Assembly (NCBI GenBank): GCA_050613775.1
Contig: JBODTK010000140.1
Coordinates: forward strand, 372,001-436,000
Origin: Neocallimastix sp. 'constans'
Lineage: Eukaryota
DNA: 64,000 bases
Reading direction: 5' to 3'
How positions within the stretch are numbered: the stretch's first letter is position 1; every line of letters begins with the position of its first letter. Under the pieces are notes generated by a model. The model searched no databases, had not been told where the DNA came from, and saw only the letters and a list, made by a program, of their open reading frames with translations. Below are positions 7,798-35,698 of the stretch, piece after piece. A program made the translations under genes and the position numbers.

Positions 7798-8077
7798 TGT
7801 TAGAAATAAAGTTTAATATTATGATACTTGTTAAAAATAAAGTTCAAATAGTATAGTAATTTATATTATATATATTTAAATCTCTATGTATGTATGTATG
7901 TATGTGGCTTAATACATATAATATTAATATGAAGTTATTGTGTAATTGATGTAGTAAAAAACTAATACATGTAATTAGTATAAAATAAAATAATAATTTA
8001 ATAATTAAATAAAATAGAACTTAAATAAATAAAAAAAAAAAATAAAAAATAAAATAAAATAAAAATAAAAAACAAAA

Positions 8078-8092
8078 GATTAAGAGTCTCAT
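8078..8092 (+). promoter_or_regulatory. Primer-binding site of the inner Copia, complementary to the anticodon arm of tRNA-Lys(CUU)
   Basis: gattaagagtctcat abuts the LTR. Its reverse complement ATGAGACTCTTAATC matches the anticodon stem-loop of eukaryotic tRNA-Lys(CTT) as I recall it; the host tRNA is not in the window. Confidence 0.8.
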
Positions 8093-8100
8093 TAACAGTA

Positions 8101-9141
8101 ATGAGTGAAAAAAGGAATATAACGAATACTGTTGAAGAAACAGTAAATACATTAAACCAAATAAATACAGTAAACATAGCAAATAAACCAACTACTACAA
8201 AACACCTATTAACATCAAATAACTACAGACTATGGTTAACGGATATGGATCTTTTATTAGTTATTAATGATGTTGATGACTATGTTTACGAAGAAAAGGT
8301 AAAAGTTATAAAGAAAAACAAAATAGCTAAAGAAAATCTAAAGAAATATAAAAAGGTTAGAGGTTGTGATGACCTATATTATGAAAAAGACGTCACAAAA
8401 GAAATGATAAAGCTAGATTCTTTAGCTAAGCATCTGATAAACAATAGCATATCAGATGAAATCAAAATTAAATTAGATTTTCAAAGATCTAGTGCCTATC
8501 AAATTTGGAACATTTTAAAAGCAAGTAATACTAGATCAAATGAAGAAAGGAAATTAGAATTAAAAAATAAGTTAGAGAATATGAAATATAACAAAGAAAA
8601 TGATATTTCATTATTTATTGAAGAAATGAACAACATTTTCAATGAATTAAGTAGTCTTGAAATGGAAATCAGCGATGAGAAGAAATTTGAATATCTTTAT
8701 CTCGCTCTTCCATATGAAATAACATTGGAAGTTAACATAATGGACCACGATGGGAAATGGGAAGATGTTACCAAATGTCTAAAAAAGAAGGTCCCTAAGC
8801 TAAAATATCTTAAGGAACTTAGAAAAGAAAATAACCACAAGAATAATACAGTAATAAACGTTAACTCAATGACCAAGAAAAATAGATTCACACCAAGAAA
8901 CAACAGAGGAAGAAAAAGATGTTATATATGTAACAAGCTAGGACATATAGCACGGGACTGTTGGCATAATGAAAAGAACAAAAGAAAAAAGAACAATAAT
9001 ATCAAAGCCAACAACGCAAGTATAAACAAAGAGGATGGGTATTGCGAATTTGCTGATGCTCAAATAAGCCTCGAAGATTACAATTCAGATGAAGATATCC
9101 AATCCTCATACTCCGTTCGACCGAGGCGTGGACGCTACTAA
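8101..9141 (+). CDS. gag: Copia Gag (inner element)
   Basis: 346-aa ORF just after the PBS. N-terminal NYRLW..DM motif and CX2CX4HX4C knuckle CYICNKLGHIARDC. Confidence 0.92.
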   Translation: MSEKRNITNTVEETVNTLNQINTVNIANKPTTTKHLLTSNNYRLWLTDMDLLLVINDVDDYVYEEKVKVIKKNKIAKENLKKYKKVRGCDDLYYEKDVTKEMIKLDSLAKHLINNSISDEIKIKLDFQRSSAYQIWNILKASNTRSNEERKLELKNKLENMKYNKENDISLFIEEMNNIFNELSSLEMEISDEKKFEYLYLALPYEITLEVNIMDHDGKWEDVTKCLKKKVPKLKYLKELRKENNHKNNTVINVNSMTKKNRFTPRNNRGRKRCYICNKLGHIARDCWHNEKNKRKKNNNIKANNASINKEDGYCEFADAQISLEDYNSDEDIQSSYSVRPRRGRY

Positions 9142-12100
9142 AGCAGAAAATAACATGCCGAGACAAAACCTCAGTTATTATGTGACTGCCCCGTCAACTA
9201 AAGCGAAGCTACCAAGTAATATAGTCAGTTGGACAATTGACTCCGGAGCCACCTATCACATGACAAATGCATTATCAAGTTTAATAGATAAGATAAGGTG
9301 TGAAGAAATTATCCAATTCGCTGACGGAGGTACAGTTACTGCTACGTACAAAGGTACGTACGTAGGATATATTAACAATAATGAAATTACATTACGAAAT
9401 GTATTATATATTCCTAAATTCAAAAGAAGTTTGTTGTCAATAGACAATTTAAGTGAGGAAGGTTATAAAACAATATTTTACAATTTTAATAATAAAAATT
9501 TAGTTACCATTTACAACAAAGAAGGCAAAAGGATATTTACTACCAAATCTAATAAATCCAAAATATATAAAGTATGGACTTTCAAAAATAAAATAGAATA
9601 TAATAGGGACAACAACAAAAAGACTATTACATGTGACAATATTATAAAAGCTTTCAACACAGAAAACATGGAGCTATGGCACCGCCGTCTTGGCCACTTT
9701 TATATAGATAACATTAAGGAAAAATTAAATAATATAAACATACAAAATAAATGTATAATATGTGCGTCCAAGATGAGAAATAAACCTTATAACAAAGCAA
9801 GAAACAAATCAAAAGAGCCGTTTGAACTTATACATATGGATACAGTGTCATCCCTAGATAGCTCCATATATGGAAATAAATATTTCTTAAGTATATTAGA
9901 TGATTATACCAGGTACGGATGGGTCTTTTTTATGAACTCAAAAGCCGAAGTGTTCAATATTTTCAGAAAATGGTATAAGAAAGTCACCAACATTTTCAAC
10001 AAAAATATTAAATATATACGAACCGACAATGGTACTGAGTTTACAAATAATAACTTTAGGAAATTTTGTGAAGAAAATGGTATTGAACAACAATTTTCAA
10101 TACCTTACAACCCACAGCAAAACGGAAGAGCCGAACGTTTTCAAGAAACCCTCATTTATAACGCCACCGCCATGCTCAAAGACGGTAAGCTAAATCATAA
10201 ATATTGGGAAGATGCTGTAAGGACAGCAAATTACATTCATAATAGGTTACCACATAATGGTAACAACAACAAAGTGCCTTTTGAGGAATTATATCAAGAA
10301 AAGGTCGATTATGAAAAGTTTAGAGTATTTGGTTGCCAAGTTTACTTTTATATCCCAAAACAATTTAGGCGAAAATTCAACGGAACCTCCCTTCCTGGAA
10401 TATTTTTAGGATATGATGATAAAAATCCAACAGCCTACATAATATATGATACTACAAATAATAAAATAGTCCTTTCAAGGACAGTTGAATTCTTCGAAGA
10501 TACCCCTGGTAATATTTCCGCACCTTCTACAAGACCAGAAATATATAACTTTGAGGTTAATATGGAAGAATACGATGAAAATAACAAAAATACAGTATTA
10601 CTCCAAGACTATAATAACAAAAATAAGGAACATGAAAATAAAGAGACAACAGAAAATAGAGAAGAAAATAAAAATAATAACAATATAAATAATAATGATA
10701 ATTTAAATAATTTAAATAATAATTATTTAGAAAATAATAATTTAAATAATAATAATAATAATATAAATAATAATTATCCAAATGATAATAATTTAAATAA
10801 ATATAATTTTAATAAAAATTATTTAAATGATAATAATATTAATTTTACTTATAGTCCTAATCCAAATAAAAATTTTCCCCAATCAACCAATATAATTGAC
10901 CCATATAAAAATTATAATAATTATAATATTTTACCTTTAAATAATTTAAATAGTAATATAAGTAGCAATTTACCTTTTGCAGAAAACTTAAATCCGGCCA
11001 TTTACAATTATAATGCTGGATTTATAAATCCTAATTTAAATTATTTAAATAAAAATAATTATATTCAAAATGAAAATTATAATAATTTTCTAAATGAATA
11101 TAAGGGTCATTTATATTTAAATGATAATAATTTAAATAATAATTATATTAATAAAATTATAAATTATGAAAATAATGCTCAAAATTCATCAAATTCAGGA
11201 AATTTAAACAATAAAAATTCAGAAGATAATTCTCAAGGTAAATATAATTTAATTAACAACATAAACAATAAAAATGATAAAATGGAACAATCCATACATA
11301 ATTCAAATTGTAATGATAACGTTATGAATGGAAATTCAAGTTCCATTGATAATAATTATGTAAAAAATAATTATATTCCAAATAATAATTTATATAAAAA
11401 TAATTTTAATACAAAAATGAGAATTAATAATTTATATGATGGTCAGTCGAATATGAACGATGTCCAACGTATAAATAATAATTCTAATATAAACAAAGAA
11501 TTAAATTCAAATATAAAAAATGAATTAAATTCAAATGTAAACAAAGAATTAAATTCAAATGTAAACAAAGAATTAAATTCAAAAGTAAACAAAGAATTAA
11601 ATTCAAATATAAATAATGAATTAAATTCAAATGTAAACAAAGAATTAAATTCAAATGTAAACAAAGAATTAAATTCAAATGAAAATAAAGAATTAAATTC
11701 AAATGAAAATAAAGAATTAAATAAATTAGATATGAATAATAAATCAAATAATTCTACAATATCAAATATTAATAATGATAAAGAAACACCAGATAAAACA
11801 AATAATAAGAAAACAAGTAAACGTAAAGGAAAGAGAAAACTTGATTCAGAAACAAAACCTGAATCAAAGAAATTAAAATCATCAAATTTAAAGGACAAGA
11901 ACGTTAAACGGAAAGGTAAGAGAAAACTTGATTCTGAATTAAAACCAGAATCAAAGAAAATAAAATCATTTGATTTAATGGATATAATAGAAGATAATTT
12001 TTCTTTATTATCTACAAAGGAGGAGCTGTGTGAACCCTATAATTATCCTGATATATTCAATAAAATTGATAAAAATGAATGGTTACAAGCAGTCAAGGAG

Positions 12101-13543
12101 GAATTAAACAGCATGAAAAACTTAAAAGTTTATAAGAAAGTTGATAGGGTACCCAAGGGTAGTAATATAATAACACCAAAGTGGGTGTTCAGATACAAAT
12201 ATAATTCAGACAATAGTATAAATAAAAGAAAAGCAAGACTGGTAGCCAGAGGTTTTACACAAAAACAAGGCATTGATTATAATGAGACGTTCTCGCCCAC
12301 ATTGAAACAGGACTCTTTGAGAATAGCAACTGCTATTGCATCAGCCAATAACTTTAATATATATCAAATTGATATAAAATCAGCCTACCTAAACGCTACA
12401 CTAAACGAAGATGTTTATATGGAAATTCCAGAAGGTGCTGAAGATTATAAAAATGGCTATTGGAAACTAAATAAAGCCTTGTACGGTTTGAAACAGTCTG
12501 GTCGTTTGTGGAACGAGACTTTAAATGAAAAACTTATAAATATTGGTTTTAATAGACTTCGAAGTGAACCATGCATTTACGTTAAAATGAATGATCGGAA
12601 TAAAATTATTTGTCTTCTTACAGTTTATGTAGATGATATATTATTAACAGGTAATGAACATGAAGTATATAAAACAAAACATTTATTAAAAAATTATTTT
12701 AACATAACTGATATAGGTCCTGTGGATACAATCATTGGCGTTAAATTTATAAAAGAAAAGGACGGCTATCTATTGCAACAACATAAATATCTAGAGAATA
12801 TATTAAGAAAATTTGATATAGATAAGTATAAAATATCTTCAAATATGATACCAGAAGAAAATGAAGAATTAAGAAAAAGAAAATTCAATATCACGAAATA
12901 CCAACAAGCTATAGGTAGTTTATTATATCTCGCGATATGTACTAGACCGGATATCTTATTTCCTGTGAATAAAGCTTCCAGAAAAGCCAAAGATCCAAAT
13001 TATGAAGATTGGTATAATGTCATCAAAATATTTAGATACCTCAAGGGAAAACCTAATTATGGTTTAAGGTATTCAGGAAACTTAAAATTAAATGTTTATG
13101 TAGATGCAGATTACGGAGGAGATGTAGAGTCTAGAAAATCTACTACGGGTTATATAATTAAAATAGGTTCAGGACCTACCTCATGGTATTCAAAATTACA
13201 ACACTGTGTATCTTCTGCCGAAAGTGAATATTATGGAATAAATGAATGCGCTAGACATTGCTTGTGGTATGAAAATGTATTAAATGAATTAAAATTAAAT
13301 TGTAATTGTATAACAATAAATGTAGATAATAAAGCTGCCATTTATAATTGCGAAAATGAAACTATTAACCCAAGATCTAGACACATAGACATAAAATATC
13401 ACCACACAAGAGATCTTATTAAAGAAAATAAAATAAAACTAAAATATATAAAGTCTGAAGATAATCTAGCCGATGGTTTTACAAAGTATCTTAATACATA
13501 TCTATTAAATAAATTTAGAGATTCTATTATGGTGAAGTGTTAG
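9068..13543 (+). CDS. pol: Copia Pol (PR-IN-RT-RNase H), +1 frame relative to gag; frame open from 9068
   Basis: Motifs WTIDSGA (protease); WHRRLGH..CIIC, IHMD, RTDNGTEF, QNGRAER (integrase); KARLVARG, YVDD (RT); DADYGG, DNKAA, ADGFTK (RNase H). Confidence 0.95.
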   Translation, partial: ASKITIQMKISNPHTPFDRGVDATKAENNMPRQNLSYYVTAPSTKAKLPSNIVSWTIDSGATYHMTNALSSLIDKIRCEEIIQFADGGTVTATYKGTYVGYINNNEITLRNVLYIPKFKRSLLSIDNLSEEGYKTIFYNFNNKNLVTIYNKEGKRIFTTKSNKSKIYKVWTFKNKIEYNRDNNKKTITCDNIIKAFNTENMELWHRRLGHFYIDNIKEKLNNINIQNKCIICASKMRNKPYNKARNKSKEPFELIHMDTVSSLDSSIYGNKYFLSILDDYTRYGWVFFMNSKAEVFNIFRKWYKKVTNIFNKNIKYIRTDNGTEFTNNNFRKFCEENGIEQQFSIPYNPQQNGRAERFQETLIYNATAMLKDGKLNHKYWEDAVRTANYIHNRLPHNGNNNKVPFEELYQEKVDYEKFRVFGCQVYFYIPKQFRRKFNGTSLPGIFLGYDDKNPTAYIIYDTTNNKIVLSRTVEFFEDTPGNISAPSTRPEIYNFEVNMEEYDENNKNTVLLQDYNNKNKEHENKETTENREENKNNNNINNNDNLNNLNNNYLENNNLNNNNNNINNNYPNDNNLNKYNFNKNYLNDNNINFTYSPNPNKNFPQSTNIIDPYKNYNNYNILPLNNLNSNISSNLPFAENLNPAIYNYNAGFINPNLNYLNKNNYIQNENYNNFLNEYKGHLYLNDNNLNNNYINKIINYENNAQNSSNSGNLNNKNSEDNSQGKYNLINNINNKNDKMEQSIHNSNCNDNVMNGNSSSIDNNYVKNNYIPNNNLYKNNFNTKMRINNLYDGQSNMNDVQRINNNSNINKELNSNIKNELNSNVNKELNSNVNKELNSKVNKELNSNINNELNSNVNKELNSNVNKELNSNENKELNSNENKELNKLDMNNKSNNSTISNINNDKETPDKTNNKKTSKRKGKRKLDSETKPESKKLKSSNLKDKNVKRKGKRKLDSELKPESKKIKSFDLMDIIEDNFSLLSTKEELCEPYNYPDIFNKIDKNEWLQAVKEELNSMKNLKVYKKVDRVPKGSNIITPKWVFRYKYNSDNSINKRKARLVARGFTQKQGIDYNETFSPTLKQDSLRIATAIASANNFNIYQIDIKSAYLNATLNEDVYMEIPEGAEDYKNGYWKLNKALYGLKQSGRLWNETLNEKLINIGFNRLRSEPCIYVKMNDRNKIICLLTVYVDDILLTGNEHEVYKTKHLLKNYFNITDIGPVDTIIGVKFIKEKDGYLLQQHKYLENILRKFDIDKYKISSNMIPEENEELRKRKFNITKYQQAIGSLLYLAICTRPDILFPVNKASRKAKDPNYEDWYNVIKIFRYLKGKPNYGLRYSGNLKLNVYVDADYGGDVESRKSTTGYIIKIGSGPTSWYSKLQHCVSSAESEYYGINECARHCLWYENVLNELKLNCNCITINVDNKAAIYNCENETINPRSRHIDIKYHHTRDLIKENKIKLKYIKSEDNLADGFTKYLNTYLLNKFRDSIMVKC
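11489..11722 (+). repeat. In-frame 24-bp minisatellite, ~9.7 copies, encoding (V/I/E)NKELNSN
   Basis: gtaaacaaagaattaaattcaaat repeated inside the pol IN-RT linker. Confidence 0.95.
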
Positions 13544-14084
13544 TCACAATTGAACTTTAGGAGGAGTGTTAAAAATAAAGTTCAAATAGTATAGTAATTT
13601 ATATTATATATATTTAAATCTCTATGTATGTATGTATGTATGTGGCTTAATACATATAATATTAATATGAAGTTATTGTGTAATTGATGTAGTAAAAAAC
13701 TAATACATGTAATTAGTATAAAATAAAATAATAATTTAATAATTAAATAAAATAGAACTTAAATAAATAAAAAAAAAAATAAAAAATAAAATAAAATAAA
13801 AATAAAAAACAAAAATACTATATTATAGTTAGTTATATAACTTAGAATATAATATTATTAATATATTAAATAATTAAACATGTATTGTTATGTAAATATA
13901 TCATGGCGCATATATGACGTACATCATATACTTACATAAACAACCAAATATAGTTATATTAAATGTAATAAATAATGTTTATATAATTGTATTATACAAT
14001 TAATTATAAACAATAACCTTATTAAATAAAGATATTATTAAAAGTAGAGATCGAAATCTCAATTTCAAAGAAATATTTTTAATA

Positions 14085-14098
14085 GATTAAGAGTCTCA
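14085..14098 (+). promoter_or_regulatory. Primer-binding site of the outer Copia (tRNA-Lys(CUU) anticodon arm)
   Basis: gattaagagtctca directly after the 5' LTR, identical to the inner element's PBS although the LTR bodies differ. Confidence 0.8.
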
Positions 14099-14277
14099 AT
14101 TTGACTCTACTAGTGTTTTATAATATTATATAACGAGTTTTTAATATTAAAATTCAGAAATATTTTTTTAATAACGATTAAATCATTTATTGATTATTCA
14201 ATATAGTAATTACATATTTTATTTTGTTGTCTTTAAAAAAAAAAAAAAAAAATAATAATAAATAAAAATAAAACAAA

Positions 14278-15356
14278 ATGAGTGAATCATTAACAATTTC
14301 ATCTAATGTCAAAGTATTGAGTAAAAAGAATTATCCTTGTTGGGCCTCTGATATGGAACTGTTACTTGTCACCCATGAATTAGAATCTTATATTTACGAA
14401 GATAACGTTAAGATAATACATAAATCAGACAGCGAATACGAAGAAGGATGTATTCCAATTATGTGCACTAAGGACCTGTACTACGCAAAAGGAGTGACTA
14501 AAAAGCAAATAAAAAATGATGCAATGAAAAAAGAATAATAAGTCTTAATCTTGATGACTCAATCATGATTAAAATAGATTTCAGAACAAAATCAGCACAT
14601 CAAGTTTGGAAGCTGATTGAATCTACCTACTTAGAAAGTGAAGAGCAAAGGAAAATAAATTATAGAAAAGAATTGGAAGTAATGTCCTTTAACAAGAATG
14701 AAGATTTTGAATTGTTTTTGTCTAATATGATAAATATTTTTAATAAACTCAAGGATTTAAATGATGAGGTTAGTGACGAAGCAAAATATAATTATCTTTA
14801 TAAATCGTTACCTTATGACCTCATACATGCGACCAACATTATTAGCTATCACGATAATTGGGAAGGATGCTGCAAGCATTTAAATAAAATAATTCCAAAG
14901 TTAAAATTCTTAAAGGAATATAAAAATAATCAATATAACACTAATGCCTTGTTTAGCAGCACTGAAGAAAATAAACATAAAAATGTAAATCATAATTATA
15001 TAAACAAAAGAAATAATACGTACAATATTAATAAAAATTTCAAATGTTATAATTGTGGCGGTTTCGGGCACATTGCAAGAAATTGTAGCAGTAAACGCCA
15101 CATTAACAATGGTAAAAATTACAACTTAAATAAATATAAACACAATAATAAAGGAAAAGAGTATTCATACAAAAATAGAAAATACAATTCTAGAAAAGGA
15201 CGTACATATGCGAACAATGTAGAAGAAACAAAATATGAAGAAAATTATAAAAACATTTATGATAACGTTTTAAATACAGATTACAACGATAATGAACATT
15301 GTGAATCTAATAGTGCGATTGTAGAGAAAAAGATAAGTAATAAAAAGGATTTTTAA
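14278..15356 (+). pseudogene. gag: Copia Gag (outer element) with one frameshift in an A-run near 14527-14533
   Basis: ORFs 14278-14538 and 14565-15356 join into a homolog of the inner Gag (DAMKK/RIISLNLDDSIMIKIDF vs DSLAKHLINNSISDEIKIKLDF). Knuckle CYNCGGFGHIARNC. Confidence 0.88.
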
Positions 15357-18130
15357 ATAACGGCAGTGTACTCCCTATGCAGAATATTGATTATTATACT
15401 GCCGATAATTTAACAATAAATTTACCTAATAAAATCAATAATGACGTTACTGAATGGACTTTAGATTCTGGAGCGTCATATCACATGACTGGGAATGTTA
15501 ATAACATAGTCGACTCTCAAAAACATGAAGTAAGCATCCACTTCGAAAATAATCATATAATTAAATCAAAATTAATTGGAAAACTTGTAGGTTATATTAA
15601 TGGTAACAAAATTACTCTTAATAACGTCTTGTATATACCTACATTCAAGAAAAATCTTCTTTCAATTGATCATTTGAGTAATGAAAACTTTAAAACAGTA
15701 TTTTATAGATACAAAAATAAAAATCATGCTGCTATATTTAATAACAAAAATAAAAGAATATGCACATCAATATCAAATAATTCTAAAGCATATAAAGTAA
15801 TAATGACTAGAAAAAATATTAATATGCCCAACAGATACACTTGTAATAATTTAGAAAAAGCCACAGAAGATAATAATATGGAATTGTGGCACAGACGTAT
15901 AGGCCATTTTAATATTGATTTAATTAAAGATAAATTATCCAAAATTAACATCTCGAAAAGATGTAAAATATGTTCAAAATCAAAACTAAAAAATTTCCCT
16001 TATCTACCTGCAAAAAATAATACCAAAGAAACATTCGAGCTTATTCATATGGATCTAGTATATGTACCAGACTACTCTGTTTATGGAAATAAATATTTCT
16101 TAACTATATTAGATGACTACTCAAGATACAGCTGGATTTGTTTTAAAGAAAATAAAAGTAAAACATTTGATGCTTTTATCAACTGGTACAATCAAATTAA
16201 AAATATTTTTAATAAAAATATAAAGTATATTAAGACTGACAATGGTACTGAATTCTTTAACAATAGATTTAGAGAATTTTATGATAAAACCGGTATAGTA
16301 CATGAGAGTACTATTCCTTACAATCCTCAACAAAATGGAAGAGTTGAGAGATTACATGGAACTTTGATTTCTAATGCAGAGGCAATGCTTACAGATGCAA
16401 AGTTAAATCATAAATTTTGGGAATATGCAGTTTCAACTGCTAATTATATCCATAACAGGTTACCACATAAAAGTAACAATAATAAGATCCCATATGAAAT
16501 ATTATATAATGATAAGGTTGACTATAATAAATTTAGGGTATTTGGGTGTTTAACATATTTCTACGTACCCAAACAATTTAGAAAAAAGTTTTGGAATACC
16601 ATTTTACCAGGTATATTTTTAGGGTATGATGAAATTAATCATACAGCCTATAAAATATATGATATTACAAACAATAAAATAATTCTTTCAAGAGCTGTAG
16701 TATTCATAGAAGATGAATCAGGAAATATGAATTCCCCTTTTTCTACTCCAGACACATTAAATTTCATACCATATTGTGAAATCGAAGAAAATAATGATGA
16801 TATTGAAAATGATAATAATATTGATAATAATGTTAATAATTATAACAATAATAATATAGGTGACAGTAACAATAACTATAATTATAACATTTATAATGAT
16901 AATAATACAACAGAAAATATAGAAAATATGAGAAAATCAAATAATAATAATTATAATAATTATAATTTAAATGAAAAATTTATTAATCCATATTTTAATC
17001 CAAATATTCCTTATAATGATGTTAATTTTAATAATTACCAAAATACTAATAATAATTTTATTTCCCCAATCAATTACAACTATCCTAATGTACCATTTTA
17101 TAATATTAATGAACCAAATTATTTAAATCCTGACTTTAATCCTCAATTAATAAATTCACAAAACATTAATTCTTCATTTATAAATAATAATAAAAATAAT
17201 TTAAATGAACTTTATTCAAATAATAATTATAATTATTTCCAAAATGAAAATAATAAATATTTTTTAAATGGAAATAAAAATTATAATTATAATAATGATT
17301 ATTTATTGAATAATTATAATAACAATTTAAATAATATTAATTATTCAAATAATTTAAATAAAAATATTGTTAATTATAATAATAATAAATTTATAGGTAA
17401 TTCGAAAAATGTAATCAGGAATATTCAGGATAATGAAACAGATAATATTAACGTTGATTTCAATAAAGCAAACAATATTAATCAACCCATTGAGAATAAC
17501 AATAATTCATTCAATATTAATAATCTCCTTAAGGATCAAGATTTAAATAGGATAAATACTAATTTAATTCAAGAAAACTTAAATTTTGAAGTAGATAATG
17601 TAAACAAACCTTTAAAGGAAAATGTATATACAGGAATAAATAATAATGGAAATATTACTAATAATTTAAATTTTAATTATAATAATAATGCCAATGAAAA
17701 TATAAATAAACTTAACTTGAATAATGTTAATGAGTTATATGGGAATGATTTTGATGATAAATATAAACATAATTTAAATGTTAACAATCAAGAAAATATA
17801 AATCATACTACAGGTAATGAAATAAACGTAAGTAATATAACTCATGATAATATTAGTGTAAATGAACCAAATGTTAATTCAAATAATCCGAATACGAATG
17901 AAAGTAATGAGGAATATAATAATTTAAATAAATCTAAAGGTATTTTGAATAAAACTATTATTGAAAAAATAAATATAAATAAAAATATGAATAAGAATAA
18001 CAATGATATATATTCAAATAAAAATAAAAATAGTAATATTAATAATGCAAATGTTGATGATGAATTTGCTGAATTACGAGAACACTTAAAAACCAATTAT
18101 AATAATAATATAAATGAAATATATCATATA

Positions 18131-18190
<60 letters not shown>

Positions 18191-20268
18191 TACTTAAAAC
18201 GTTATGGAGATTATATTAAGGATACATATATTAATAAAAATAATAATGTTAATATGAATGATAAATATAATTACAATACGTTTAATAAAACTAATAAAGA
18301 AAAGGTTAGTATTGTTAACACTAAAAATGCTGACAATAATAATGCAACTTCAAAGAAGTCAGCATATACAAAATAAAAAAGAAAAATACAAAAAATAAGG
18401 TAAATAAAATATTAACTAATAAATTGAATGAAGTAAATAAGGATATTAAACATACTGAACAAGATAAACAAACTAATTCTTTTTATAAAAATAAAAACAA
18501 GATTAAAAGTACTTATGTAAATAAACAAAATAAGCAACAATCTAATATGTTTAATAATAACGATAATAATTCGAAATTAAACATTAATAATAACCAACAA
18601 ATAAGTTTATTATGTACAAAAAGAAAAATTAGATATAACCCAGGAAATAATAACAAACGGTTAAAACCTTTTAGTATAGATAACATTTTAAATAATTACG
18701 TGACTCTTATATCTATTGATAATAATAACTTAAGGGAACCAAACAACTATAGAGATATTTTTAATTTAGAAGATAAAAAAGAGTGGTTGAAAGCCGTCGA
18801 TGAGGAGCTAAATAATATGAAAAAAATGAGAGTGTTTACGTTAATAGATAAAGTACCTAAAGGAGCAAATATTGTTTCTACTAGATGGGTCCTTAAATAT
18901 AAAAAAGACTCAGAAGGAAATATAATTAAACGAAAAGCTAGACTAGTAGCAAGAGGGTACTCTCAAATATATGGTGTGGATTATAGAAATACCTTCTCCC
19001 CCACACTTAAACAGGATACACTCCGAATAATTATAGCTATTTCAGTTCACCATAAATTTAATATTCATCAAATGGATATTAAAGCCGCCTATTTAAACGC
19101 CGAACTAAAGGAAGATATATACATGGAACTACCTGAAGGTCTAAATAAAAAGGGTTTTTGTAAATTAAATAAAGCTTTATACAGCTTGAAACAATCAGGT
19201 AGGATGTGGAATGAAACATTTAATAAAGTATTAATAAGTTTAAACTTTAAAAGGTTCATTAGCGATCCATGTGTATATATTAAAAAAGATAACGATAGTA
19301 ACATAAAATGTATTTTAGCCGTGTATGTAGATGATATTATTATATCTGGAACTGATGCCGAAATTAAGAAAACCAAAAAATTAATTAAAAATAATTTTGA
19401 AGCTACCGATGTAGGTGAGATTGATTTTATAATTGGTATAAAATTCGTTAAATGTGATGACGGTTATTTTATATATCAAATAAAATATTTAGAAGATATT
19501 CTAAATAGATTTGACATAAACAAATATAGTCCAACGTCGAACACCATACCTATTGAATATAAAGAATTAAGAAATAAATACTTTAATCCTACAAGATATA
19601 AACAAGCAATTGGAAGTTTGCTTTATCTGGCTTTAAGTACTAGACCTGATATTCTATATTCAGTCAGTAAGGCTTCAAGGAAATCTGAAAAACCCACATA
19701 TGAGGATTGGTATAACTTATTAAAAATATTTAGATACTTAAAAAAGAACCCAAATTATGGTATAAAATTTTCATATAATGATAAAATTAACCTTGAAGTA
19801 TATGTTGATGCCGATTTAGGTGGCGACAAAGAAACTAGGAGATTAACTACTGGATTTCTAATGCTAATTAATTCAGCCCCAACAAGCTGGTTCTCTAAGC
19901 TTCAACATTGTGTTTCTGTATCAACAGCAAAGAGTGAATATTACGGTATTCATGAATGCGCAAGACACTGCTTATGGTATAAAAATATATTTAAAGAATT
20001 TGGAATCAAACATGAATGTATAACAATCAGCACAGATAATAAAGCAGCAATTTATAATTGCGAAAATGAAACAATTAACCCGAAATCAAAACATATAGAT
20101 TTAAGATACCATAGTATTAGAGAACTGGTAAGAAATAATTATATAGATTTAAAATATATTAAATCTGAGTTTAATTTATCAGACGGTTTAACTAAATACT
20201 TAAATACTACTTTAATGAATAAATTTAGAAATAACATTCTTTCTAGCTTTAATGATCTTAAACTTTAG
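15344..20268 (+). pseudogene. pol: Copia Pol (outer element), -1 frame relative to gag, with one frameshift in the Asn-rich linker (between 18310 and 18376)
   Basis: WTLDSGA, WHRRIGH..CKIC and KTDNGTEF lie in 15377-18376. KARLVARG, YVDD and DADLGG lie in a second frame open 18310-20268. Confidence 0.92.
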
Positions 20269-22875
20269 GGGGAATGTTAGAAATAAAGTTTAATATTATG
20301 ATACTATATTATAGTTAGTTATATAATAACTTAGAATATAATATTATTAATATATTAAATAATTAAACATGTATTGTTATGTAAATATATCGTGGCGCAT
20401 ATATGACGTACATCATATACTTACATAAACAACCAAATATAGTTTTATTAAATGTAATAAATAATGTTTATATAATTGTATTATACAATTAATTATAAAC
20501 AATAACCTTATTAAATAAAGATATTATTAAAAGTTGAGTTCGAAATATCAATTTCAAAGAAATATTTTTAATATACATTAATAAATATTTTTCATATGGA
20601 CAATATAAAAATTAATAAAAAAGTAATATATTAATATACAATTATTTAAATTTTTAAAAGTAGTAAAAAAATAATATGAAAAGTAAATAGCTTAATAAAA
20701 AATTCTATATAATTAAAAATAAATGATTTTTAAAATTTTTTATACTATATATTTTAATAAAAAATTCCATATGATTAGCAAATTTTAAAAATTATTTAAT
20801 AATTATTTTTAAAGTATATAAATATTCAATAATTTTATGAAGCATCAATTTCTTTAAAAGTATAATTATATAACTATTTTTATTTCTGTCTTTCAATAAT
20901 TAACTTTTTTTTTTTTTAATTTCGTTTTAAAAAATAGTATTATTCTATTATTATTATCATTATTTTGTATTTTCAATTTTATTCATACTTATAATTATCT
21001 TTATTTTAATAAAAAGTAAAAATTTCAGTATTTTCGAGACTACTCAAGATAAACAGTATGTAGACAGTAATTATACTATTTTTAAAAGTGTACGACTATT
21101 TTTATCGGAGAGATATCTTCCTTCGCTAACTACTAAATTTATAAAACTCAGGTTAAAATAATACACCAATGTTAATAGAATAGTCCCAACATGTTCAAAT
21201 ACAACATCTCTATCTCAAAACAAACTTATCTTCAGTACAATTTGTAAAATTATAATTTTCATAAAGGAAAAAACACAATTCAAAAATACATTTTATTCAA
21301 ATAGATTTTCAATATAAAATTTATTCCATAATCAAATTTTTCTATTGATCGAATGCCCATGTAAAACGACATAAAACATTCCAATTAATTGACAAGCTTA
21401 GTAATATATATTTTCAAATTATACTCAAAAATTTCAATTTTAGTGACAGCATTAATTATTTAAAATCAAATATTATACAAAATACAAAGACAATAAATTT
21501 TAATACTATAGTGTTCTTACTTTAAGTTACTTTAATACTAAAATATATACATAATTAATTAATATATATCTTTATATTGTAATAATTATAAAAAAATATA
21601 AATATTTTAATTTATTCCCCTTATTTCTCATTTTATAAAACATACATTTTTTTTCTTTTCACATAATATAATAAACTATGATAAAAAAAATAAAAATAAA
21701 ATAAAAAAAAAATTAAATTAAAATGTGAAAAATTATTATCATTCACAATTTCTGTAGTTCTTTATAATTCTTAATAACCTACTTTATATTTTAAATTTAT
21801 GAGATTATATAAATTGTATATCAAATACAAGATATTAAAATTTATAAAAATATGATTGGATAAAAATACCCCACATATATCAATATAATGAAAAAATGCA
21901 AATCGGGATGTATTAAGTAAAAAAATTTATAAAAATGTTTTATCATATTTTATATATATTAGTATAAATTGAAATATATATAAAACATATTTATAAATAT
22001 TTTTATTAAAAAGACTATTTATTAATTACATAAATTCATTTATTAAAAAAAAGAAGAGTTTTTTAGTTTTTTAGGAATATTACTATATATAACAATATAT
22101 TAATAAATTGAAACAAAATTATTTCATATTTATGTAATATATTACAATATATAGTAATTAAAATAATCAAAATAGGAATTATACTTTAATTTTATTAATA
22201 AAATTTAAAATATTAATATTATAATATTCATTTAAAAATAATAATATTAAATCAGCTAAAGATTAAAGTAATAATGTAAAAAAATGATTAAAATTATAAA
22301 TAAAATTTTTTTGTTTTGAATTTCTTTTACTCATTAATCTTTCTTTTTTTTTTTGTTTAATTTATAAAAGTAAATATAAATCATTAAAAGGATTAAAGTA
22401 ATTATATTTAAATTTAATAAGCAAATAAATTTTTATTTTGGGATATGAATGTTAATGAGAGAAAAAAAGTGTAATAAAAAAGTAGATAAGTAAAAGCGAA
22501 CAATACCATAATTTAACTAGATAAATAAAATATATGAAATGAAGATTATACGTTTTAACATTTATTTGAAAAAAATTTACAACTAAAATATATAAACAAA
22601 CTAAATAAAAAAAATAAAAATAAAAATAAAAATTAAAACAAGAATTAAAACAAAAAGCAAAAACTAGAATCAAACAACAAAAATAATAAATTCATTGAAT
22701 AGATAAAACAACAGTAGAAAATATAAATTATTATAATTATTGGAAAATGAAATATCAAATAAAAAATAAAATAAAAGAATAAATTAATAGATTTGAAGTT
22801 TAATAAAAGAAAATTATTTATTGTAATAATTAATAGTTTTTTTTATTTTCAAATACTACAATAGATATTCATAAA

Positions 22876-28372: not shown

Positions 28373-29204
28373 AAAAAATATAATAAAAAAAATACAATAA
28401 AAAAAAATATAATAATTATTTTATATATATAGGAATCTTATATATTTTAATTTTTTTCATTTATTTTTCTAAAAAAAAAAAAAATTAGTTATAATAACGT
28501 TTGTCTTTTAATTATTATATTTTATTATAGTAAATAAAAAAATTTAAATGAAAAGTAAATAATTTTAATTATTTATAATTCATATTTTCATAAACGATAT
28601 ATATATATATATATTAATTTAAATGATATAAGAATTAAAAATTAAAACAATAAGAGTTGAATAATTGATCCTATTAAAATAATTAATTATTTGCATAGTA
28701 ATATTTATAATGTTTGATCAATATGAATCAATTATTATTAAAATATAATAATAACAATTATAATTTTAATAAAATAATAAAAATCTTTTATTGAATTTAA
28801 TATTTTTAATAACATAATTAATTTTGAAAAGTATATTGATATTAATAAAATTTATAATATAATATTGATATTGATATTAATAAAATTTATAATAATATAA
28901 ATAATATAATATTGATATTGATATTAATAAAATTTATAATTATATAATATTGATATTGATATTAATAAAATTTTAACTAGTATCAAATAAATCGGTTTTA
29001 GTTATAAATTACTTAATAAAAATAACTAAAAGATAATTTCTATTAAGATTATTAAATAAACACAATAGGTAAATAAATTTGTATTTTTCTAGCATTTTTT
29101 TAAATTAAGATTATTTAATTATTATTTAAACGATTATAAATATAAATTTAAAATAAATAAATTTTTATTTTTCTAGCATTTTTTTAAATTAAGATTATTT
29201 ATTT

Positions 29205-30636
29205 TAAATTAATATTTATATCGTTTAAATCAATTAAACATTCTTTCCATAATTTAATTAATTCATTTCTGTTGCATCCCATTATAAAATAAATTTATTT
29301 CCTTACTTTTGTAATTTTCAATTAAAATTTTAATTTCATCAGTTGCACTAAATATTTTTTGCTTTTTTTTTCAATTTCCTTTAGTTCTCCTTTGATAATC
29401 ATTATAAGATAAGTTTTCTTCTTCTTTTAATATATATATTAATTTATAAAATAAAGGTTTATTTGGAAATATATTATTTAAGTAGCTATTATAAGATTCT
29501 GATGCATTGTTTGTTAAATGCTCTATATTTTCATAATAATTCCAATTATTAACATTATACTTAAGTAAATAATTTTTATTAAAATATTCTAAAAATTGCA
29601 GAAAATTATTATACTTTTTTTTTTTGACAAATTCTTTTTATTATAATATAAATATCAAATATATAGTTAGGGTTTATAAACGGTAAGTTCGAAATAGCTT
29701 TATAATAAATATATACATCATTATTATTCTTCACTTCATGATAACATAATATATTTTTTTGTTTTTCTAATGATCTTTTGTAATGCCAAACACAATATTT
29801 AATATTTATATTGGGAAAAACTTTTTTTGCGGCATTAGATATACCTTGTTCAAAATCACAATGAAAATTAATTGTAGTAATTAATATATTACTCCTAGAT
29901 TTATTTGCATTTTTTTTTATTTCTTTAAATAATGTTTCATATGTAGATTGTTTTTTATTTTTTAATATAGAAATGGAAGTAGTGTAAAACATATTAAATT
30001 CCCCAACATAAGTTCTTGTTATAAATAACTGATAACTAAATTTCGGTGATGCATAAAATGTACCGTCCGCAAATATATTTTTATGATAATTCGAAAATAA
30101 ATATGCTTGGAATGGTGATTGAAAGATTATTAGATTAGTATTTTTAAATATCATAAAATTTTCATTTCTTTTAGTTTTATGATATTCTGATTCAATGGGA
30201 ATATCATCAAAACTTTTTATGTTTGGAGGAAATTGTTTATTTATATTTCTTATTATTTGGGATCAATTGTACTATATTCGGGACATATAAGTCCTATTTC
30301 TTGGGAAACGGCATTAAATATATGTTTAGGTTTTATATCCATAGGAATTGAATTTTTCTTAATTTCTTCCTTAATTTTATGCTTTGCTACTGATATAGAC
30401 ACATCAATTTCTTTTTTGAGATGGTTATGTAAACTTTCATATTTTAAAACCTCCTTTTTATCATTTAAAATAATTAAAGATTTACATTTATTTAAAGTCT
30501 TATATTCAGTGCATCTATAAATTTTTGATTTATCTTTCCTTTGAAATGAAAAATTAAATTTGTGTTTTTTATTAATAATAATTTGTTCATTTCCTCGATT
30601 TGTTTCACTTATTTCAATTTCTATATTGTCTTCCAT
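29205..30636 (-). pseudogene. MULE transposase pseudogene (family A copy 1)
   Basis: ORF pieces MEDNIEIEISETNRG..., IFADGTF, HCDFE, YCVWHY, TNNASESYN. Frameshifts near 30262, 29615-29625 and 29278, and a TGA near 29371. Confidence 0.9.
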
Positions 30637-31808
30637 TAATAATTAAAATTTTTCAATAAAATATTTTAATAAATATACTTTTAAATGCTTTGAAACTTTT
30701 TTTTTTTTTTTAATATTTAAAATAATAAACCTTTTTTTTAATTAATTATATAATTATTTAAATAATTATTTAATTATTTAATTATTAATTATTTATTATT
30801 TCTTTATTTACTATTTTATTTATTTATTTTTATTTTTATTTTTTATTTTTTATTTTTTATTTTATTTTATTTTTTTTATTTTTTAATGCTTAAAAATTAA
30901 ATTTTTATTTATTTTTATTTTATTTTTAAATGCTTAAAAAGGGTGTGGGGCATTTCGCCAAGTTGCTTTTCGCCAATTTTTTTGAAAGCATGTGGCGTAT
31001 TAAAAAAATGTGGCATTTCGCCAAGTTGCTTTTCGCCAAATTGAGAATTATTAAATAAATAAATAAATAAATAAAATTAAATATTTTTAATATTGATGTA
31101 TTTATAATTATGAAGTAAATATTTAAATATTAAAAAAAAAATTTTTTCATATATAAATAGCTTTACAAATATCTGTTTAAATAAATAATAAATTGATAAA
31201 TAATAAATAAAAAAAAAAAATAATAATAAAATAAACAATATAGTAATATAATTAATAAAAAAAATAATATAAACACTATTGCTATAATTATAAAAGGATT
31301 GTCATTAATAATAATAATGACGATTAAATTATAAATAATATTATTATTATTAACAAATATATATATAAATGAATTAATAAAAATAATATTTACCTACTTA
31401 AGAAAAATGTTAAAAAGTTTTTCATATAATATTTTATAAATTAATAATAAATAATATATAATAAATAATAAATAAATAATATAAACTGTAGCAATAATTA
31501 CAGAAACATCAATAATAATATTTTTATAATAATGATGAAAATTATAATAGTTATTAAATATAAAAATAAATATAAAATTATAATATAAAAATTTTTATAC
31601 TTTATATAATAAAAAATATAATAAACTTATAAATACTTTATATTTATCCAGTTACACTAAAAAAAGGAATTATTTAAAATATAGAAGAATTAAAAAATAA
31701 TATTTGAATAATTAATCTTCATTTAAAGTATATATAATTAAAAATATATATTATTAAAATTAATCATTAGAATATTTAATTAGAAACTTTTATTAAAAAA
31801 AAAAAAAA

Positions 31809-33236
31809 ATGGAGAAAAATCTAGAAATTGAAATAAGCAAAACTAATAGAGGAAAAGAACAAATTATTTCAAACAGAAAATATAAGTTTAATCTTTCATC
31901 CAAAAGGAAACACAATTCAAAAAAATATAAATGTACAGAATATAAAACATTAAATCAATGTCCATCTTTCATTATTTTAAATAATGAGAATCAAATCTTA
32001 GAATATGATGACTCACATTATCATCTTGAAAATAAATTTGGAGCAGCTAAATCAATTGTAAAAAATAAAATTAAAGATGAAATTTCAAAAAGTTCAATTC
32101 CTTTTAATGTAAATATAAAACGTACATATGATGAAATTTCTCAAGGTATGGGTCTTATATGTCCAGGATATAATTCAATTAAATCCCAAGTAACAAGAAG
32201 TAGAAGAAAACAACTACCTCCTGATATAACATCATTTGATGAAATTCCCAATGAATCAAAATATTATAAAACAAAAAGGGATGAAAATTTTATGATATTC
32301 AAAAATAATGATTTAATTGTTTTTCAATCTCCATTCCAAGCAGAATTATTTTCTAAAAATAAACATATTTTTGCGGATGGCACATTTTATATTGCACCTA
32401 TATTTAGTTATCAAGTATTCATAACTAGAACCTATGTTACAGAATTAAATTGTTTTTACACTACTTCCTTTTCTATATTAAAAAATAAAAAGCAAACAAC
32501 TTATGAAATATTATTTGAAGAAATAAAAAAAAATTCTAGTAAATATAATAGTATTGAAATTACACCAAAAATATTTCATTGCGATTTTGAAAAAGCTGTA
32601 TCTAATGCTGCACAAAAAGTTTTTATTAATGCAAATATTAAATACTGTATATGGCATTTTAAAAGAGCATTAGAAATTAAAAAAAAAGAATTATGTGGTG
32701 ATAAAGTAGAAAAAATAAAAGATTTATATATTTATTATAATAATATCTCGAACTTTCCTTTCATTAATCCTGAATATATATATGATATATATAGTAAAAT
32801 AAAAAGTGAGTGCCAAGAACATAATTATGTTCAATTTTTAGAATTTTTAGAATATTTTAAAAAAACTTATTTAATTAACTATGAAACTGAAAATTGGAAC
32901 TATTATGATAATATTGAGCATATTACAAATAATGTTTCAGAAACTTTTAATAAATACTTAAAAAAATTATTTGCAAAAAAACCAACTTTTTTTCAATTAC
33001 TATCAGAATCGCAAAAAGAAGAATCAAAATATTACATTGATTACGAAAGGAGAACTGCTGGAATTTTAAGAAATAAAAAACAAAAAAAATTAATAAGAAC
33101 TGAGGAAATTAAAGCTTTGGTTAAATATTACAAAAATATGGAAATTCTATTAAAAAAAAAGGAAAGTGTTAGAAATGATTTCATTGACTTATGGTTGAAA
33201 TGCTTAAATGATTTAAATATAAAAATTATTGATTAA
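31809..33236 (+). CDS. MULE (Mutator-like) DDE transposase, 475 aa
   Basis: N-terminal FLYWCH-like C..C..HxH, then ADGTF, HCDFE, CIWH (CxxH) and TNNVSE, all in one frame. Confidence 0.9.
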   Translation: MEKNLEIEISKTNRGKEQIISNRKYKFNLSSKRKHNSKKYKCTEYKTLNQCPSFIILNNENQILEYDDSHYHLENKFGAAKSIVKNKIKDEISKSSIPFNVNIKRTYDEISQGMGLICPGYNSIKSQVTRSRRKQLPPDITSFDEIPNESKYYKTKRDENFMIFKNNDLIVFQSPFQAELFSKNKHIFADGTFYIAPIFSYQVFITRTYVTELNCFYTTSFSILKNKKQTTYEILFEEIKKNSSKYNSIEITPKIFHCDFEKAVSNAAQKVFINANIKYCIWHFKRALEIKKKELCGDKVEKIKDLYIYYNNISNFPFINPEYIYDIYSKIKSECQEHNYVQFLEFLEYFKKTYLINYETENWNYYDNIEHITNNVSETFNKYLKKLFAKKPTFFQLLSESQKEESKYYIDYERRTAGILRNKKQKKLIRTEEIKALVKYYKNMEILLKKKESVRNDFIDLWLKCLNDLNIKIID

Positions 33237-33293
33237 ATAATAAATTATTAAGAAATGACAGAAAATTGACCAAATGAATTCTGTCATATATAG

Positions 33294-33915
33294 TAATAAT
33301 TTTTTAATAGTAAAAATTATTTTAAAAAGAGAATAAATGAATAAATACAATAATTATTAAAGTATTTTTAATCTTTATTAGATTAGGTTAGCTTAAAAAC
33401 ATTAAAATATATTTTTATGATAAAATATTATTATTTTAAAAATATATTTTTATAATTAAATTATTGCTATAATATTATTTTTTTACAAAATATTAAAATA
33501 TATCTTTATAATTAAATTTATTTTTATAATTAAATATTTTAAATAATTATTTTATTACTATTTTACAAAATATTAAAATATATCTTTATAATTAAATATT
33601 ATAAATTATTATTTTATTACTATTTTACGAAATATTAAAATATATAATAATAATTTTTTTAATAGTAAAAATTATTTTAAAAAGAGAATAAATGAATAAA
33701 TACAATAATTATTAAAGTATTTTTAATCTTTATTAGATTAGGTTAGCTTAAGAACATTAAAATATATTTTTATGATAAAATATTATTATTTTAAAAATAT
33801 ATTTTTATAATTAAAGTATTGCTATAATATTATTTTTTTACAAAATATTAAAATATATCTTTATAATTAAATTTATTTTTATAATTAAATATTATTAATA
33901 ATTATTTTATTTTAA
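33294..33915 (+). repeat. Tandem duplication (~355-bp offset) in the 3' subterminal region of MULE B
   Basis: taataattttttaatagtaaaaattattttaaaaagagaat...attagattaggttagcttaa starts at ~33294 and again at ~33648. Confidence 0.85.
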
Positions 33916-35698
33916 AAAATATCTATAATTAATTATAAAATATAATAAGAACAAGTTTAAAAAAATTATTTTGAATTTTTATTTATTTAAAAAAATTATT
34001 TTGAATTTTTATTTATTTATTCATTCATTTACTTATATCAATAAGCCATTTGTCGAAATGCAACTTGGGGAAATGCAACATTTTAATAATACGCCACTTG
34101 GCGAAATGCAACTCTCCCGCTTAAAAAATTTAATTTTTATTTATTTTTATTTTATTTTTCAATGCTTAAAAAAAAAGTTTTCTTATTTCTTATTTTTATT
34201 TTATTCTTCAATGTTTAAAAAAAAAGTTTTCTTATTTCTTATTTTTATTTTATTTTTCAATGTTTAAAAAAAAAGTTTTCTTATTTCTTATTTTTATTTT
34301 ATTTTTTAAGCATTAAAAAATAAAATGTTTATTTATTTTTTATTTTATTTTTCAATGTTAAATAGAAATACCTAACCTAATTATTATTTATTGAAGTGTT
34401 GTATTTCGCCAAAAGTTGAATTTCGTCCAGTTGAATTTTGAAAAATTTTTAGTGGCTTATAAATTTACGTCATAAAATATCACCACAATTATTATTCACG
34501 CCATATTATGAATATATAGCTTTTTAAAAATTGTAGAAAAAGCCACAAATTATGATACAATTATATATACGCCCCACGTAAGATTACGTGTTTGAAAATT
34601 TTTGAGAATTGTAATTTTATTTAATTAATTAATTATTCATTAAAATTTTAATAAAATTAAGTGGCTTAAAATTGAAAATGTTTAAGCCATACAACAAAAT
34701 ACAAATTTTTGTAATAAAAATTTTCGAAATGCACACTTCCCATTGAGAAATGCACAATATAGAAACGTACTAGATTCCTGAAGTACCATTTAACCCCTAA
34801 CCTTTCACGCAAATCCCAGAGGGAAAAATCGTGAAGATTTGATACTGACGGAGGTCGATCCAGAGACCTTTTTTTTTATTTTTTTCTTTTTGTAAACAAT
34901 TGTAAATAAATAAATAAAAATAGAATTAAATATAAATGGGCTAATTTTTTTTTTTTTTTTTTTTTTTTAATTTTAAACATTAAAAAATTTTCTCATAAAC
35001 ACATTTTTATAATAAAATAAAAAATAGATAAAAATTAATAAAAAATAAAATAAAATAAAATAAAATTAATAAATAATAAATTATAATATAAAAAATATTA
35101 AAATATTTTTTCTTTTTTTTTTAAAATGAAATATTATTAAATATTATTTTTTTATTATTATAATAAAGATAATAAAATATATCTTTAAAATTAAAAATTA
35201 TTAAATATTATTACTAATTATTATTATAAAAAAAAATATTAAATTACCTCTTTAAAATTAAATATATTATTGTAATGAAAAATGAAAAATATTATAATAT
35301 TTATTAAAAATTTAAATATTATTATTTATTTATCAAATATAATTTAAGGCATCCTTACATTAAAGGTTTTATTAAAGCACGCCGCATTTCATATATAGCC
35401 ACGTTCCAAAATTAATATATAAAATGAATAAAATAAGTATAAATAATTATGACCAAATAAAATCGATGGAATAAATAAAAAATATATATAATCAACACAA
35501 TACAACACCACATCCAAATTACTATAACAAAGGTTAGAAAAATACAAATTGATCATAAATGAATGTTATTAATAATAATTCTTTTATTTAAATGTTATTA
35601 AAAAAAAATAATTATAATGATAAAATTATTAATTATTCATTGTATTTGAATATTTATTTAAACTGTATAAATATAATAAGCTTTATAAATTAAATTTT

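What the first reader, a model, noticed from the sequence alone, without database searches (positions are those of the whole stretch)
9068..9141. Ty1-like +1 frameshift heptamer CCG-AGG-C in the young Copia element
Seen: pol is +1 to gag with overlap 9068-9138. In the gag frame the codons CGA CCG AGG CGT GGA CGC form a GC-rich island four codons before the stop. A +1 shift at CCG-AGG-C (9121-9127) enters GGC GTG GAC (GVD...) of Pol. The LTRs are essentially identical, so the offset is unlikely to be decay. Known: S. cerevisiae Ty1 shifts +1 at CUU-AGG-C through slow AGG decoding, and CCG is among the P-site codons that support +1 shifting in yeast mutagenesis. Inference: hungry-codon +1 recoding in an early-diverging AT-rich fungus, using a natural CCG variant.
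Basis: partly seen in the sequence, partly recalled or inferred. Interest (0 to 1): 0.8.

Follow-up and report, generated by a model that had tools for sequence, protein, structure and literature searches.

The report
Ty1-style +1 frameshift in gut-fungal retrotransposons
A jumping gene, most likely from an anaerobic gut fungus, carries a seven-letter signal (CCG-AGG-C; GGG-AGG-C in relatives) where its two genes overlap, which likely makes ribosomes skip one base to build its enzymes, a trick best known from budding yeast.

Summary
In an intact Copia element (7829-13814), pol lies +1 to gag, and CCG-AGG-C (9121-9127) sits in the gag frame five codons before the stop. Illumina contigs of four runs show no change at the junction, so it is not an assembly slip. 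Among 17 related gut-fungal-type elements, all 7 with a +1 offset carry AGG-C in the gag frame within the overlap: 2 as CCG-AGG-C and 5 as GGG-AGG-C, at a second position. None of the 10 in-frame or -1 elements does. Two of the +1 relatives have no pol-frame ATG before the protease active site. A published tRNA table for two gut fungi lists AGG-reading tRNA genes at about 1:28 of AGA-reading ones and none for GGG. It does list tRNA-Pro(CGG), so the yeast 'missing P-site tRNA' model is not shown for CCG. The same clade also holds -1 elements (slippery heptamer plus stem) and single-frame elements. Verdict: programmed +1 frameshifting is very likely (about 0.88) but unmeasured. It is a new variant of the Ty1 mechanism, with two natural heptamers far outside budding yeasts.

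The parts
7824..7828 (.). Left target-site duplication ATACT; the element sits inside the 5' LTR (starts 7798) of a second, older Copia element
7829..8077 (+). 5' LTR (249 nt), TGTT...CAAAA
8078..8091 (+). Primer-binding site GATTAAGAGTCTCA, the internal tRNA-Lys type described for FunCo1 elements
   Evidence: PMC5445492 passage
8101..9141 (+). gag ORF, 346 aa (PF14223; CCHC knuckle at about 8917-8961)
9076..9108 (+). Gag-frame DYN...SS motif; in single-frame relatives it runs on in frame into the LP..YY-protease segment, which narrows the likely shift to 9109-9138
9068..9138 (+). gag/pol overlap, pol in the +1 frame
9121..9127 (+). Predicted +1 shift site CCG-AGG-C: P-site CCG (Pro), slow A-site AGG, first pol codon GGC at 9125-9127
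9125..13543 (+). pol from the predicted shift (1472 aa): protease (W of WTIDSG at 9230), integrase, RT, RNase H-type end; the predicted Gag-Pol fusion would be 1813 aa
13559..13566 (+). Polypurine tract AGGAGGAG
13567..13814 (+). 3' LTR (248 nt)
13815..13819 (.). Right target-site duplication ATACT

Best explanation
This intact Copia retrotransposon likely makes its Gag-Pol polyprotein by a programmed +1 ribosomal frameshift at CCG-AGG-C (9121-9127), while most ribosomes would stop five codons later and release Gag. Shown here: the layout, the heptamer, its conservation in the gag frame, and its exclusive link to the +1 layout. Inferred: with peptidyl-tRNA-Pro on CCG, the ribosome pauses at AGG, whose tRNA-Arg(CCU) gene is scarce in the two gut fungi tabulated, and accepts tRNA-Gly on the overlapping GGC, giving ...SVRP-GVDATK.... 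Relatives would do the same at GGG-AGG-C, where no cognate tRNA-Gly(CCC) is listed and P-site pairing would be weak. No downstream RNA structure appears to be needed. Programmed +1 shift at this site: about 0.88. The detailed slow-AGG/weak-P-site model: about 0.65.
For: (1) The offset is real and family-wide. (2) Of 68 loci fetched, 37 had a zinc knuckle-protease pair. Fifteen of these are AT-rich gut-fungal-type elements: 6 of 6 with a +1 offset carry CCG/GGG-AGG-C in the gag frame before the stop, and 0 of 9 others carry any AGG-C there. The window's two elements bring this to 7 of 7 against 0 of 10. (3) The only words of 4-7 nt shared in the same codon phase by all 7 overlaps are GAGGC, GAGG and AGGC. 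(4) Rare synonymous codons are used: GGG is 6.8% of Gly, CCG 5.8% of Pro and AGG 14% of Arg codons in these elements. (5) The signal sits at two different places relative to the DYN motif, always 2-12 codons before the gag stop. (6) Pol identities among the +1 families are 45-85%. (7) Five of 6 further stand-alone gag proteins without DNA, including ones from Anaeromyces, Piromyces E2 and Pecoramyces, carry [GP]R[RHQ] after the knuckle. (8) tRNA genes for AGG against AGA: 1 vs 28 and 4 vs 110; for GGG: 0 and 0 (PMC6883316 Table S3). (9) Ty1 CUU_AGG_C and K. waltii antizyme CCG_UGA_C are known precedents (PMC5009743 passages).
Against: No ribosome-level or protein evidence; all runs were contigs. 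Table S3 lists tRNA genes for CCG (1 and 4) and puts AGG at 19-20% of Arg codons in highly expressed genes. That table is patchy (0 for many needed tRNAs) and is not from this host. P0002 ends PRC, which cannot give a C at base 7. Two of 11 family members end RPRSGRYKSRK. The seven +1 elements are kin (two clades), so the per-locus probabilities cannot be multiplied. L030, outside the clade at 36% G+C, has a +1 offset without the motif.
Confidence: 0.88

Rival explanations
1. Pol is made from its own start codon (ATG 9089 or 9155), by re-initiation or from a sub-genomic RNA, as reported for some Copia elements.
For: The window has two pol-frame ATGs before the protease, and 5 of 7 +1 elements have at least one.
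Against: L001 (the closest relative) and L004 have none before the catalytic DSG, and the ATG positions are not shared. It does not explain the gag-frame AGG-C.
Confidence: 0.04
2. An intron joins gag to pol in the RNA; the conserved GAGGC would be a splice signal.
For: Copia elements of plants and Drosophila use splicing (PMC5580714 passages). Loose GT..AG pairs that would give a +1 join exist in all 7 elements (2 to 34 each).
Against: The donors are weak and at different places. The motif is locked to gag codon phase, has G before AG and varies after GC. Contigs of an RNA and a guessed-RNA run cross the junction unspliced with no joint listed there, though contigs drop rare forms. Known Copia splicing makes Gag, not Gag-Pol.
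Confidence: 0.04
3. A frameshift occurs, but at another site in the overlap, in the -2 direction, or by polymerase slippage.
For: The site is inferred, not mapped; -2 gives the same final frame.
Against: No homopolymer or slippery run is shared by the seven overlaps; only the AGGC word is.
Confidence: 0.03
4. The offset is decay or an assembly error in a single-ORF family, and the motif only encodes a conserved P/G-R peptide.
For: Single-frame relatives exist, two of them with GR[PH] at the same place.
Against: Near-identical LTRs, intact ORFs, gap-free Illumina contigs in 4 runs, the same +1 offset in 6 other families, and rare synonymous codons at every site.
Confidence: 0.01

Closest known systems
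S. cerevisiae Ty1 +1 frameshift, CUU-AGG-C (also ABP140 and YFS1)
   Same: Copia-type element; pol +1 to gag; heptamer ending AGG-C shortly before the gag stop; GGC as first +1 codon; scarce tRNA-Arg(CCU); no conserved stimulatory structure found (passages; folds).
   Different: The P-site codon is CCG or GGG, not CUU. The host is most likely an anaerobic gut fungus, not a budding yeast. CCG cannot re-pair at CGA the way CUU re-pairs at UUA. A cognate tRNA-Pro(CGG) is listed in two gut fungi.
Ty3 GCG-AGU-U, yeast antizyme GCG/CCG-UGA-C, K. marxianus GCG-AGG-C
   Same: P-site codon ending in G with poor +1 re-pairing, followed by a slow A-site; natural CCG precedent in K. waltii antizyme; natural AGG-C hybrid in K. 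marxianus.
   Different: Here CCG and GGG are combined with AGG-C. In K. waltii the CCG-cognate tRNA is missing. I found no natural CCG-AGG-C or GGG-AGG-C in the passages read.
FunCo1 Copia elements of filamentous ascomycetes
   Same: [quoted passage not shown]
   Different: Phylogenetic membership was not tested; no recoding was mentioned in the passages read.
-1 frameshifting retroelements (X XXY YYZ plus stem)
   Same: Sister elements in this clade have that layout: window element 2 (G GAU UUU) and L002/L003 (A AAU UUA).
   Different: The element in question has no such site and its offset is +1.

Membership tests
Ty1/Copia (Pseudoviridae) | pol order protease-integrase-RT, with Copia-type gag | tested here: met
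   Pfam PF14223, PF00098; PF22936, PF00665, PF25597, PF07727 in that order. RNase H was not listed by Pfam; an ADGFTK end motif is visible in the sequence.
Ty1/Copia (Pseudoviridae) | LTRs, 5-bp target duplication, PBS, PPT | tested here: met
Ty1/Copia (Pseudoviridae) | LTR ends TG...CA (usual, recalled) | tested here: inconclusive
   Both LTRs start TG and end CAAAA, three A beyond the CA.
Ty1-type +1 programmed frameshift | pol overlaps gag in the +1 frame | tested here: met
Ty1-type +1 programmed frameshift | In-frame AGG-C at the A-site, conserved among relatives | tested here: met
   7 of 7 +1 clade elements, 0 of 10 others
Ty1-type +1 programmed frameshift | CUU as P-site codon (Ty1 proper) | tested here: not met
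   CCG (2) or GGG (5); works like Ty1, but is not the Ty1 heptamer
Ty1-type +1 programmed frameshift | Scarce tRNA-Arg(CCU) in the host | tested here: inconclusive
   No host genome held; published counts for two other gut fungi: 1 vs 28 and 4 vs 110
Ty1-type +1 programmed frameshift | P-site codon read by a near-cognate tRNA | tested here: inconclusive
   GGG: 0 cognate genes in both species (fits); CCG: 1 and 4 (does not fit); the table is incomplete
Ty1-type +1 programmed frameshift | Measured shift or trans-frame peptide | not testable with these tools
   Only contigs were available
-1 programmed frameshift | pol in the -1 frame with X XXY YYZ and a 3' stem | tested here: not met
   Offset is +1 and there is no significant stem (z -0.6); the feature is met by sister element 2 instead
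FunCo1 clade | PBS ATTAAGAGTCT | tested here: met
FunCo1 clade | RT/RNase H phylogeny with FunCo1 references | not tested
   No reference sequences were at hand

The most novel reading that the evidence does not exclude
Ty1-style AGG-C +1 frameshifting arose independently in anaerobic gut fungi, probably twice (CCG after the DYN motif, GGG before it). One Copia clade has switched among in-frame, +1 and -1 Gag-Pol expression. CCG-AGG-C shifts even though a cognate tRNA-Pro(CGG) exists, so AGG-C itself, not a missing P-site tRNA, would be the shifty core; host genes of these fungi may use the same heptamers.
Probability: 0.45. Interest if true: 0.82.

Novelty: new variant of a known kind. Interest (0 to 1): 0.68.

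Why it matters
The AGG-C cases in the passages I read are all from budding yeasts, and one review ties them to a distinctive tRNA set. Natural CCG-AGG-C and GGG-AGG-C sites in an early-branching fungal group would be a convergent test of that model: evolution appears to have picked P-site codons that yeast mutagenesis had flagged as shifty (recalled). A single clade holding 0, +1 and -1 layouts makes the evolution of recoding switches directly testable. Practically, these heptamers should be avoided when recoding genes for gut fungi, and they give a search pattern for split host genes.

Tried and rejected
No host genome is held and the window has no tRNA genes, so the host tRNA set and copy survey could not be done. 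Two scans of viral contigs found no relative. Genome contigs gave 5 loci, of which only L064 is a real relative: an in-frame, fungal-type contig inside an archaeal MAG. The representatives search gave proteins without context and added only P0138 to the tree. No conserved RNA structure was found downstream of the +1 sites: z from -2.35 to +1.06 over 7 sites with mononucleotide shuffles, and -0.6, 1.29, 1.28 for the 3 tested with dinucleotide shuffles. The joint 8354>8973 has only 21 letters on its short side and GG..GA ends; it was not taken as splicing. One origin of +1 shifting against two is unresolved: AU p = 0.21 for joining the CCG pair to the GGG clade (20 of 37 rows kept; L005 and the distant outgroups among those dropped). 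The 37-row tree is a quick tree because the careful search did not finish. Thirty-one of 68 loci had no knuckle-protease pair under my patterns and were not scored. Earlier scan findings: nothing. Gao et al. 2003, the main survey of gag-pol recoding, was not available; I saw it only through a review's summary. Supplements of the two bioRxiv papers were not seen.

Full report
Observation. The window is 16% G+C, and the named relatives of its proteins come from Anaeromyces, Piromyces and Orpinomyces/Pecoramyces. The host is therefore most likely an anaerobic gut fungus; no genome is held. A complete Copia element lies at 7829-13814, with LTRs of 249 and 248 nt that differ by one A, ATACT target duplications, a PBS and a PPT. 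It is nested in the 5' LTR of an older Copia. Gag (8101-9141) and pol (open 9068-13543; protease, integrase, RT by Pfam) overlap with pol in the +1 frame. CCG AGG C is in the gag frame at 9121-9127 and is unique in the window.

Is the offset real? Contigs of four runs (two DNA, one RNA, one guessed RNA) cross the junction with no gap and differ from the window by 4-7 substitutions over 1.5-2.5 kb; none of the listed ones is in the overlap. In the gag protein cluster, 11 of 12 members reach the junction. Nine end SVRPRRGRY, and two, which also carry other changes, end RPRSGRYKSRK.

Relatives. One metagenome scan with a protease-region alignment gave 63 loci and one genome scan gave 5. Thirty-seven of the 68 have a zinc knuckle followed by a protease motif. 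Fifteen of those are AT-rich elements of the gut-fungal type, by PBS or tree: L001-L011, L025, L026, L036, L064. Six have pol +1 to gag, and each has one in-frame AGG-C in the overlap. L001 has CCG-AGG-C at the same place as the window, just after the DY..S motif. L004, L005, L006, L007 and L008 have GGG-AGG-C about 200-300 nt before the protease, upstream of that motif. The other nine (three -1, six in frame) have no in-frame AGG-C between knuckle and stop or protease; nor do the 21 in-frame loci outside the clade. L030, outside the clade, has a +1 offset without the motif and looks like a decayed copy of an in-frame family. With the window's two elements the split is 7 of 7 against 0 of 10.

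How strong is that? The only short words common to all seven overlaps in the same codon phase are GAGGC and its parts. The codons are rare synonyms in these elements: GGG 24 of 351 Gly, CCG 16 of 275 Pro, AGG 50 of 353 Arg. The per-locus chance of any AGG-C in the overlap is 0.7-2%. The seven are not independent. Trees of protease-integrase give a starred CCG pair, a starred GGG-containing clade that also holds in-frame L009, P0046 and P0067, and a starred -1 group; one origin of +1 is not rejected (AU p 0.21). Six more stand-alone gag proteins lack DNA: five have [GP]R[RHQ] after the knuckle and one ends PRC. This is weak support, because the region is rich in Arg.

Mechanism. Shown: layout, motif, phase, conservation. 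Inferred: P-site CCG or GGG, slow AGG, entry at GGC (one search gives SVRP-GVDATK). Table S3 of PMC6883316 (passages and supplement part 6 read) lists tRNA genes for AGG vs AGA as 1 vs 28 in A. robustus and 4 vs 110 in N. californiae, for GGG 0 and 0, and for CCG 1 and 4. It also puts AGG at about 20% of Arg codons and has zeros for tRNAs the cell must have, so it is only suggestive. It fits a hungry AGG and a near-cognate read of GGG, but not a missing tRNA for CCG. No shared 3' structure was found.

Rivals. An own start for Pol fails in L001 and L004, whose first pol-frame ATG lies after the protease DSG. Splicing has no conserved donor and no joint at the junction in contigs, but rare forms would be missed. 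Against a purely nucleotide reading: families P0046 (11 of 14 members in-frame fusions) and P0067 (4 fused among the 15 of 22 members listed) are single-frame yet keep GR[PH] at the site; their DNA could not be had.

The -1 sisters. Window element 2 ends gag with G GAT TTT TAA (15347-15356), followed after 7 nt by a 10-bp stem (z -2.6, 4 of 200 shuffles as good). Contigs of three runs keep this offset, keep a stop (as TAG), and lack the gag break of the window copy. L002/L003 have A AAT TTA with a weaker stem (z -1.5) and long intact ORFs. So one clade shows three layouts.

What is known. PMC5009743 (passages) describes Ty1 CUU_AGG_C, Ty3 GCG_AGU_U and K. waltii antizyme CCG_UGA_C lacking the cognate tRNA, and summarises the 2003 survey in which fungal elements used both +1 and -1. 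bioRxiv 2022.03.25.485750 (passages) reports GCG_AGG_C in K. marxianus. bioRxiv 2020.04.29.069534 (passages) confines the YFS1 shift to Saccharomycetaceae. PMC4627075 (passages) uses GGG as a slippery P-site codon in yeast reporters. PMC5445492, PMC2194720, PMC7175516 and PMC5580714 were read as passages. That CCG and GGG were among the shifty P-site codons in Farabaugh's mutagenesis is recalled, not read. Nine other searches (listings only) showed no paper on frameshifting in gut-fungal Copia elements; 'CCG AGG C' with 'frameshift' gave 4 papers, 3 listed, all off topic. Subscription journals, Repbase and Gao 2003 were not seen, so absence from print is not proven.

Verdict. Real, and probably functional (0.88). 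Interest 0.68.

Noticed in passing
window 15347-15404; L002/L003 (L003:1367-1373): Sister Copia families with pol in the -1 frame, a slippery heptamer (G GAU UUU; A AAU UUA) and a downstream GGCAG...CUGCC stem 7-8 nt later: candidate -1 programmed frameshifting in Copia elements.
   Followed up: partly
L004:3611, L005:3766, L006:1062, L007:1348, L008:3712: GGG-AGG-C, a second natural +1 heptamer, placed upstream of the DYN motif rather than downstream.
   Followed up: yes
proteins P0046 and P0067 with their clusters: In-frame Gag-Pol families that keep GR[PH] where their sisters shift. If the DNA is GGG-AGG-C, a +1 shift there could instead end translation and make Gag (an inverted switch). 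DNA not available.
   Followed up: partly
window 8073-8077 and 13810-13814: Both LTRs end CAAAA rather than CA, while several relatives show CA directly before the PBS.
   Followed up: no
window 8078-8091 and about 14086-14099; 11 of 15 loci checked: PBS GATTAAGAGTCT is shared across the clade and matches an internal part of tRNA-Lys, suggesting half-tRNA priming.
   Followed up: partly
window 7798-20275 and onward: The young element is inserted 31 nt into the 5' LTR of an older Copia whose copy here has frame breaks near 14527 (absent from family contigs) and 18343-18376.
   Followed up: partly
window 11480-11743: A 24-nt tandem repeat (NKELNSNV-like) in the Asn-rich integrase-RT linker of pol.
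   Followed up: no
L064 (SUTQ01000038.1): An intact in-frame fungal-type Copia contig inside a Methanosphaera MAG, most likely binning contamination.
   Followed up: no
window 28700-34750 and 42790-45760: Long near-identical inverted copies with transposase-like ORFs (29609-30262, 31797-33236, 43694-44458); a Mutator-like family is my recalled guess and was not tested.
   Followed up: no
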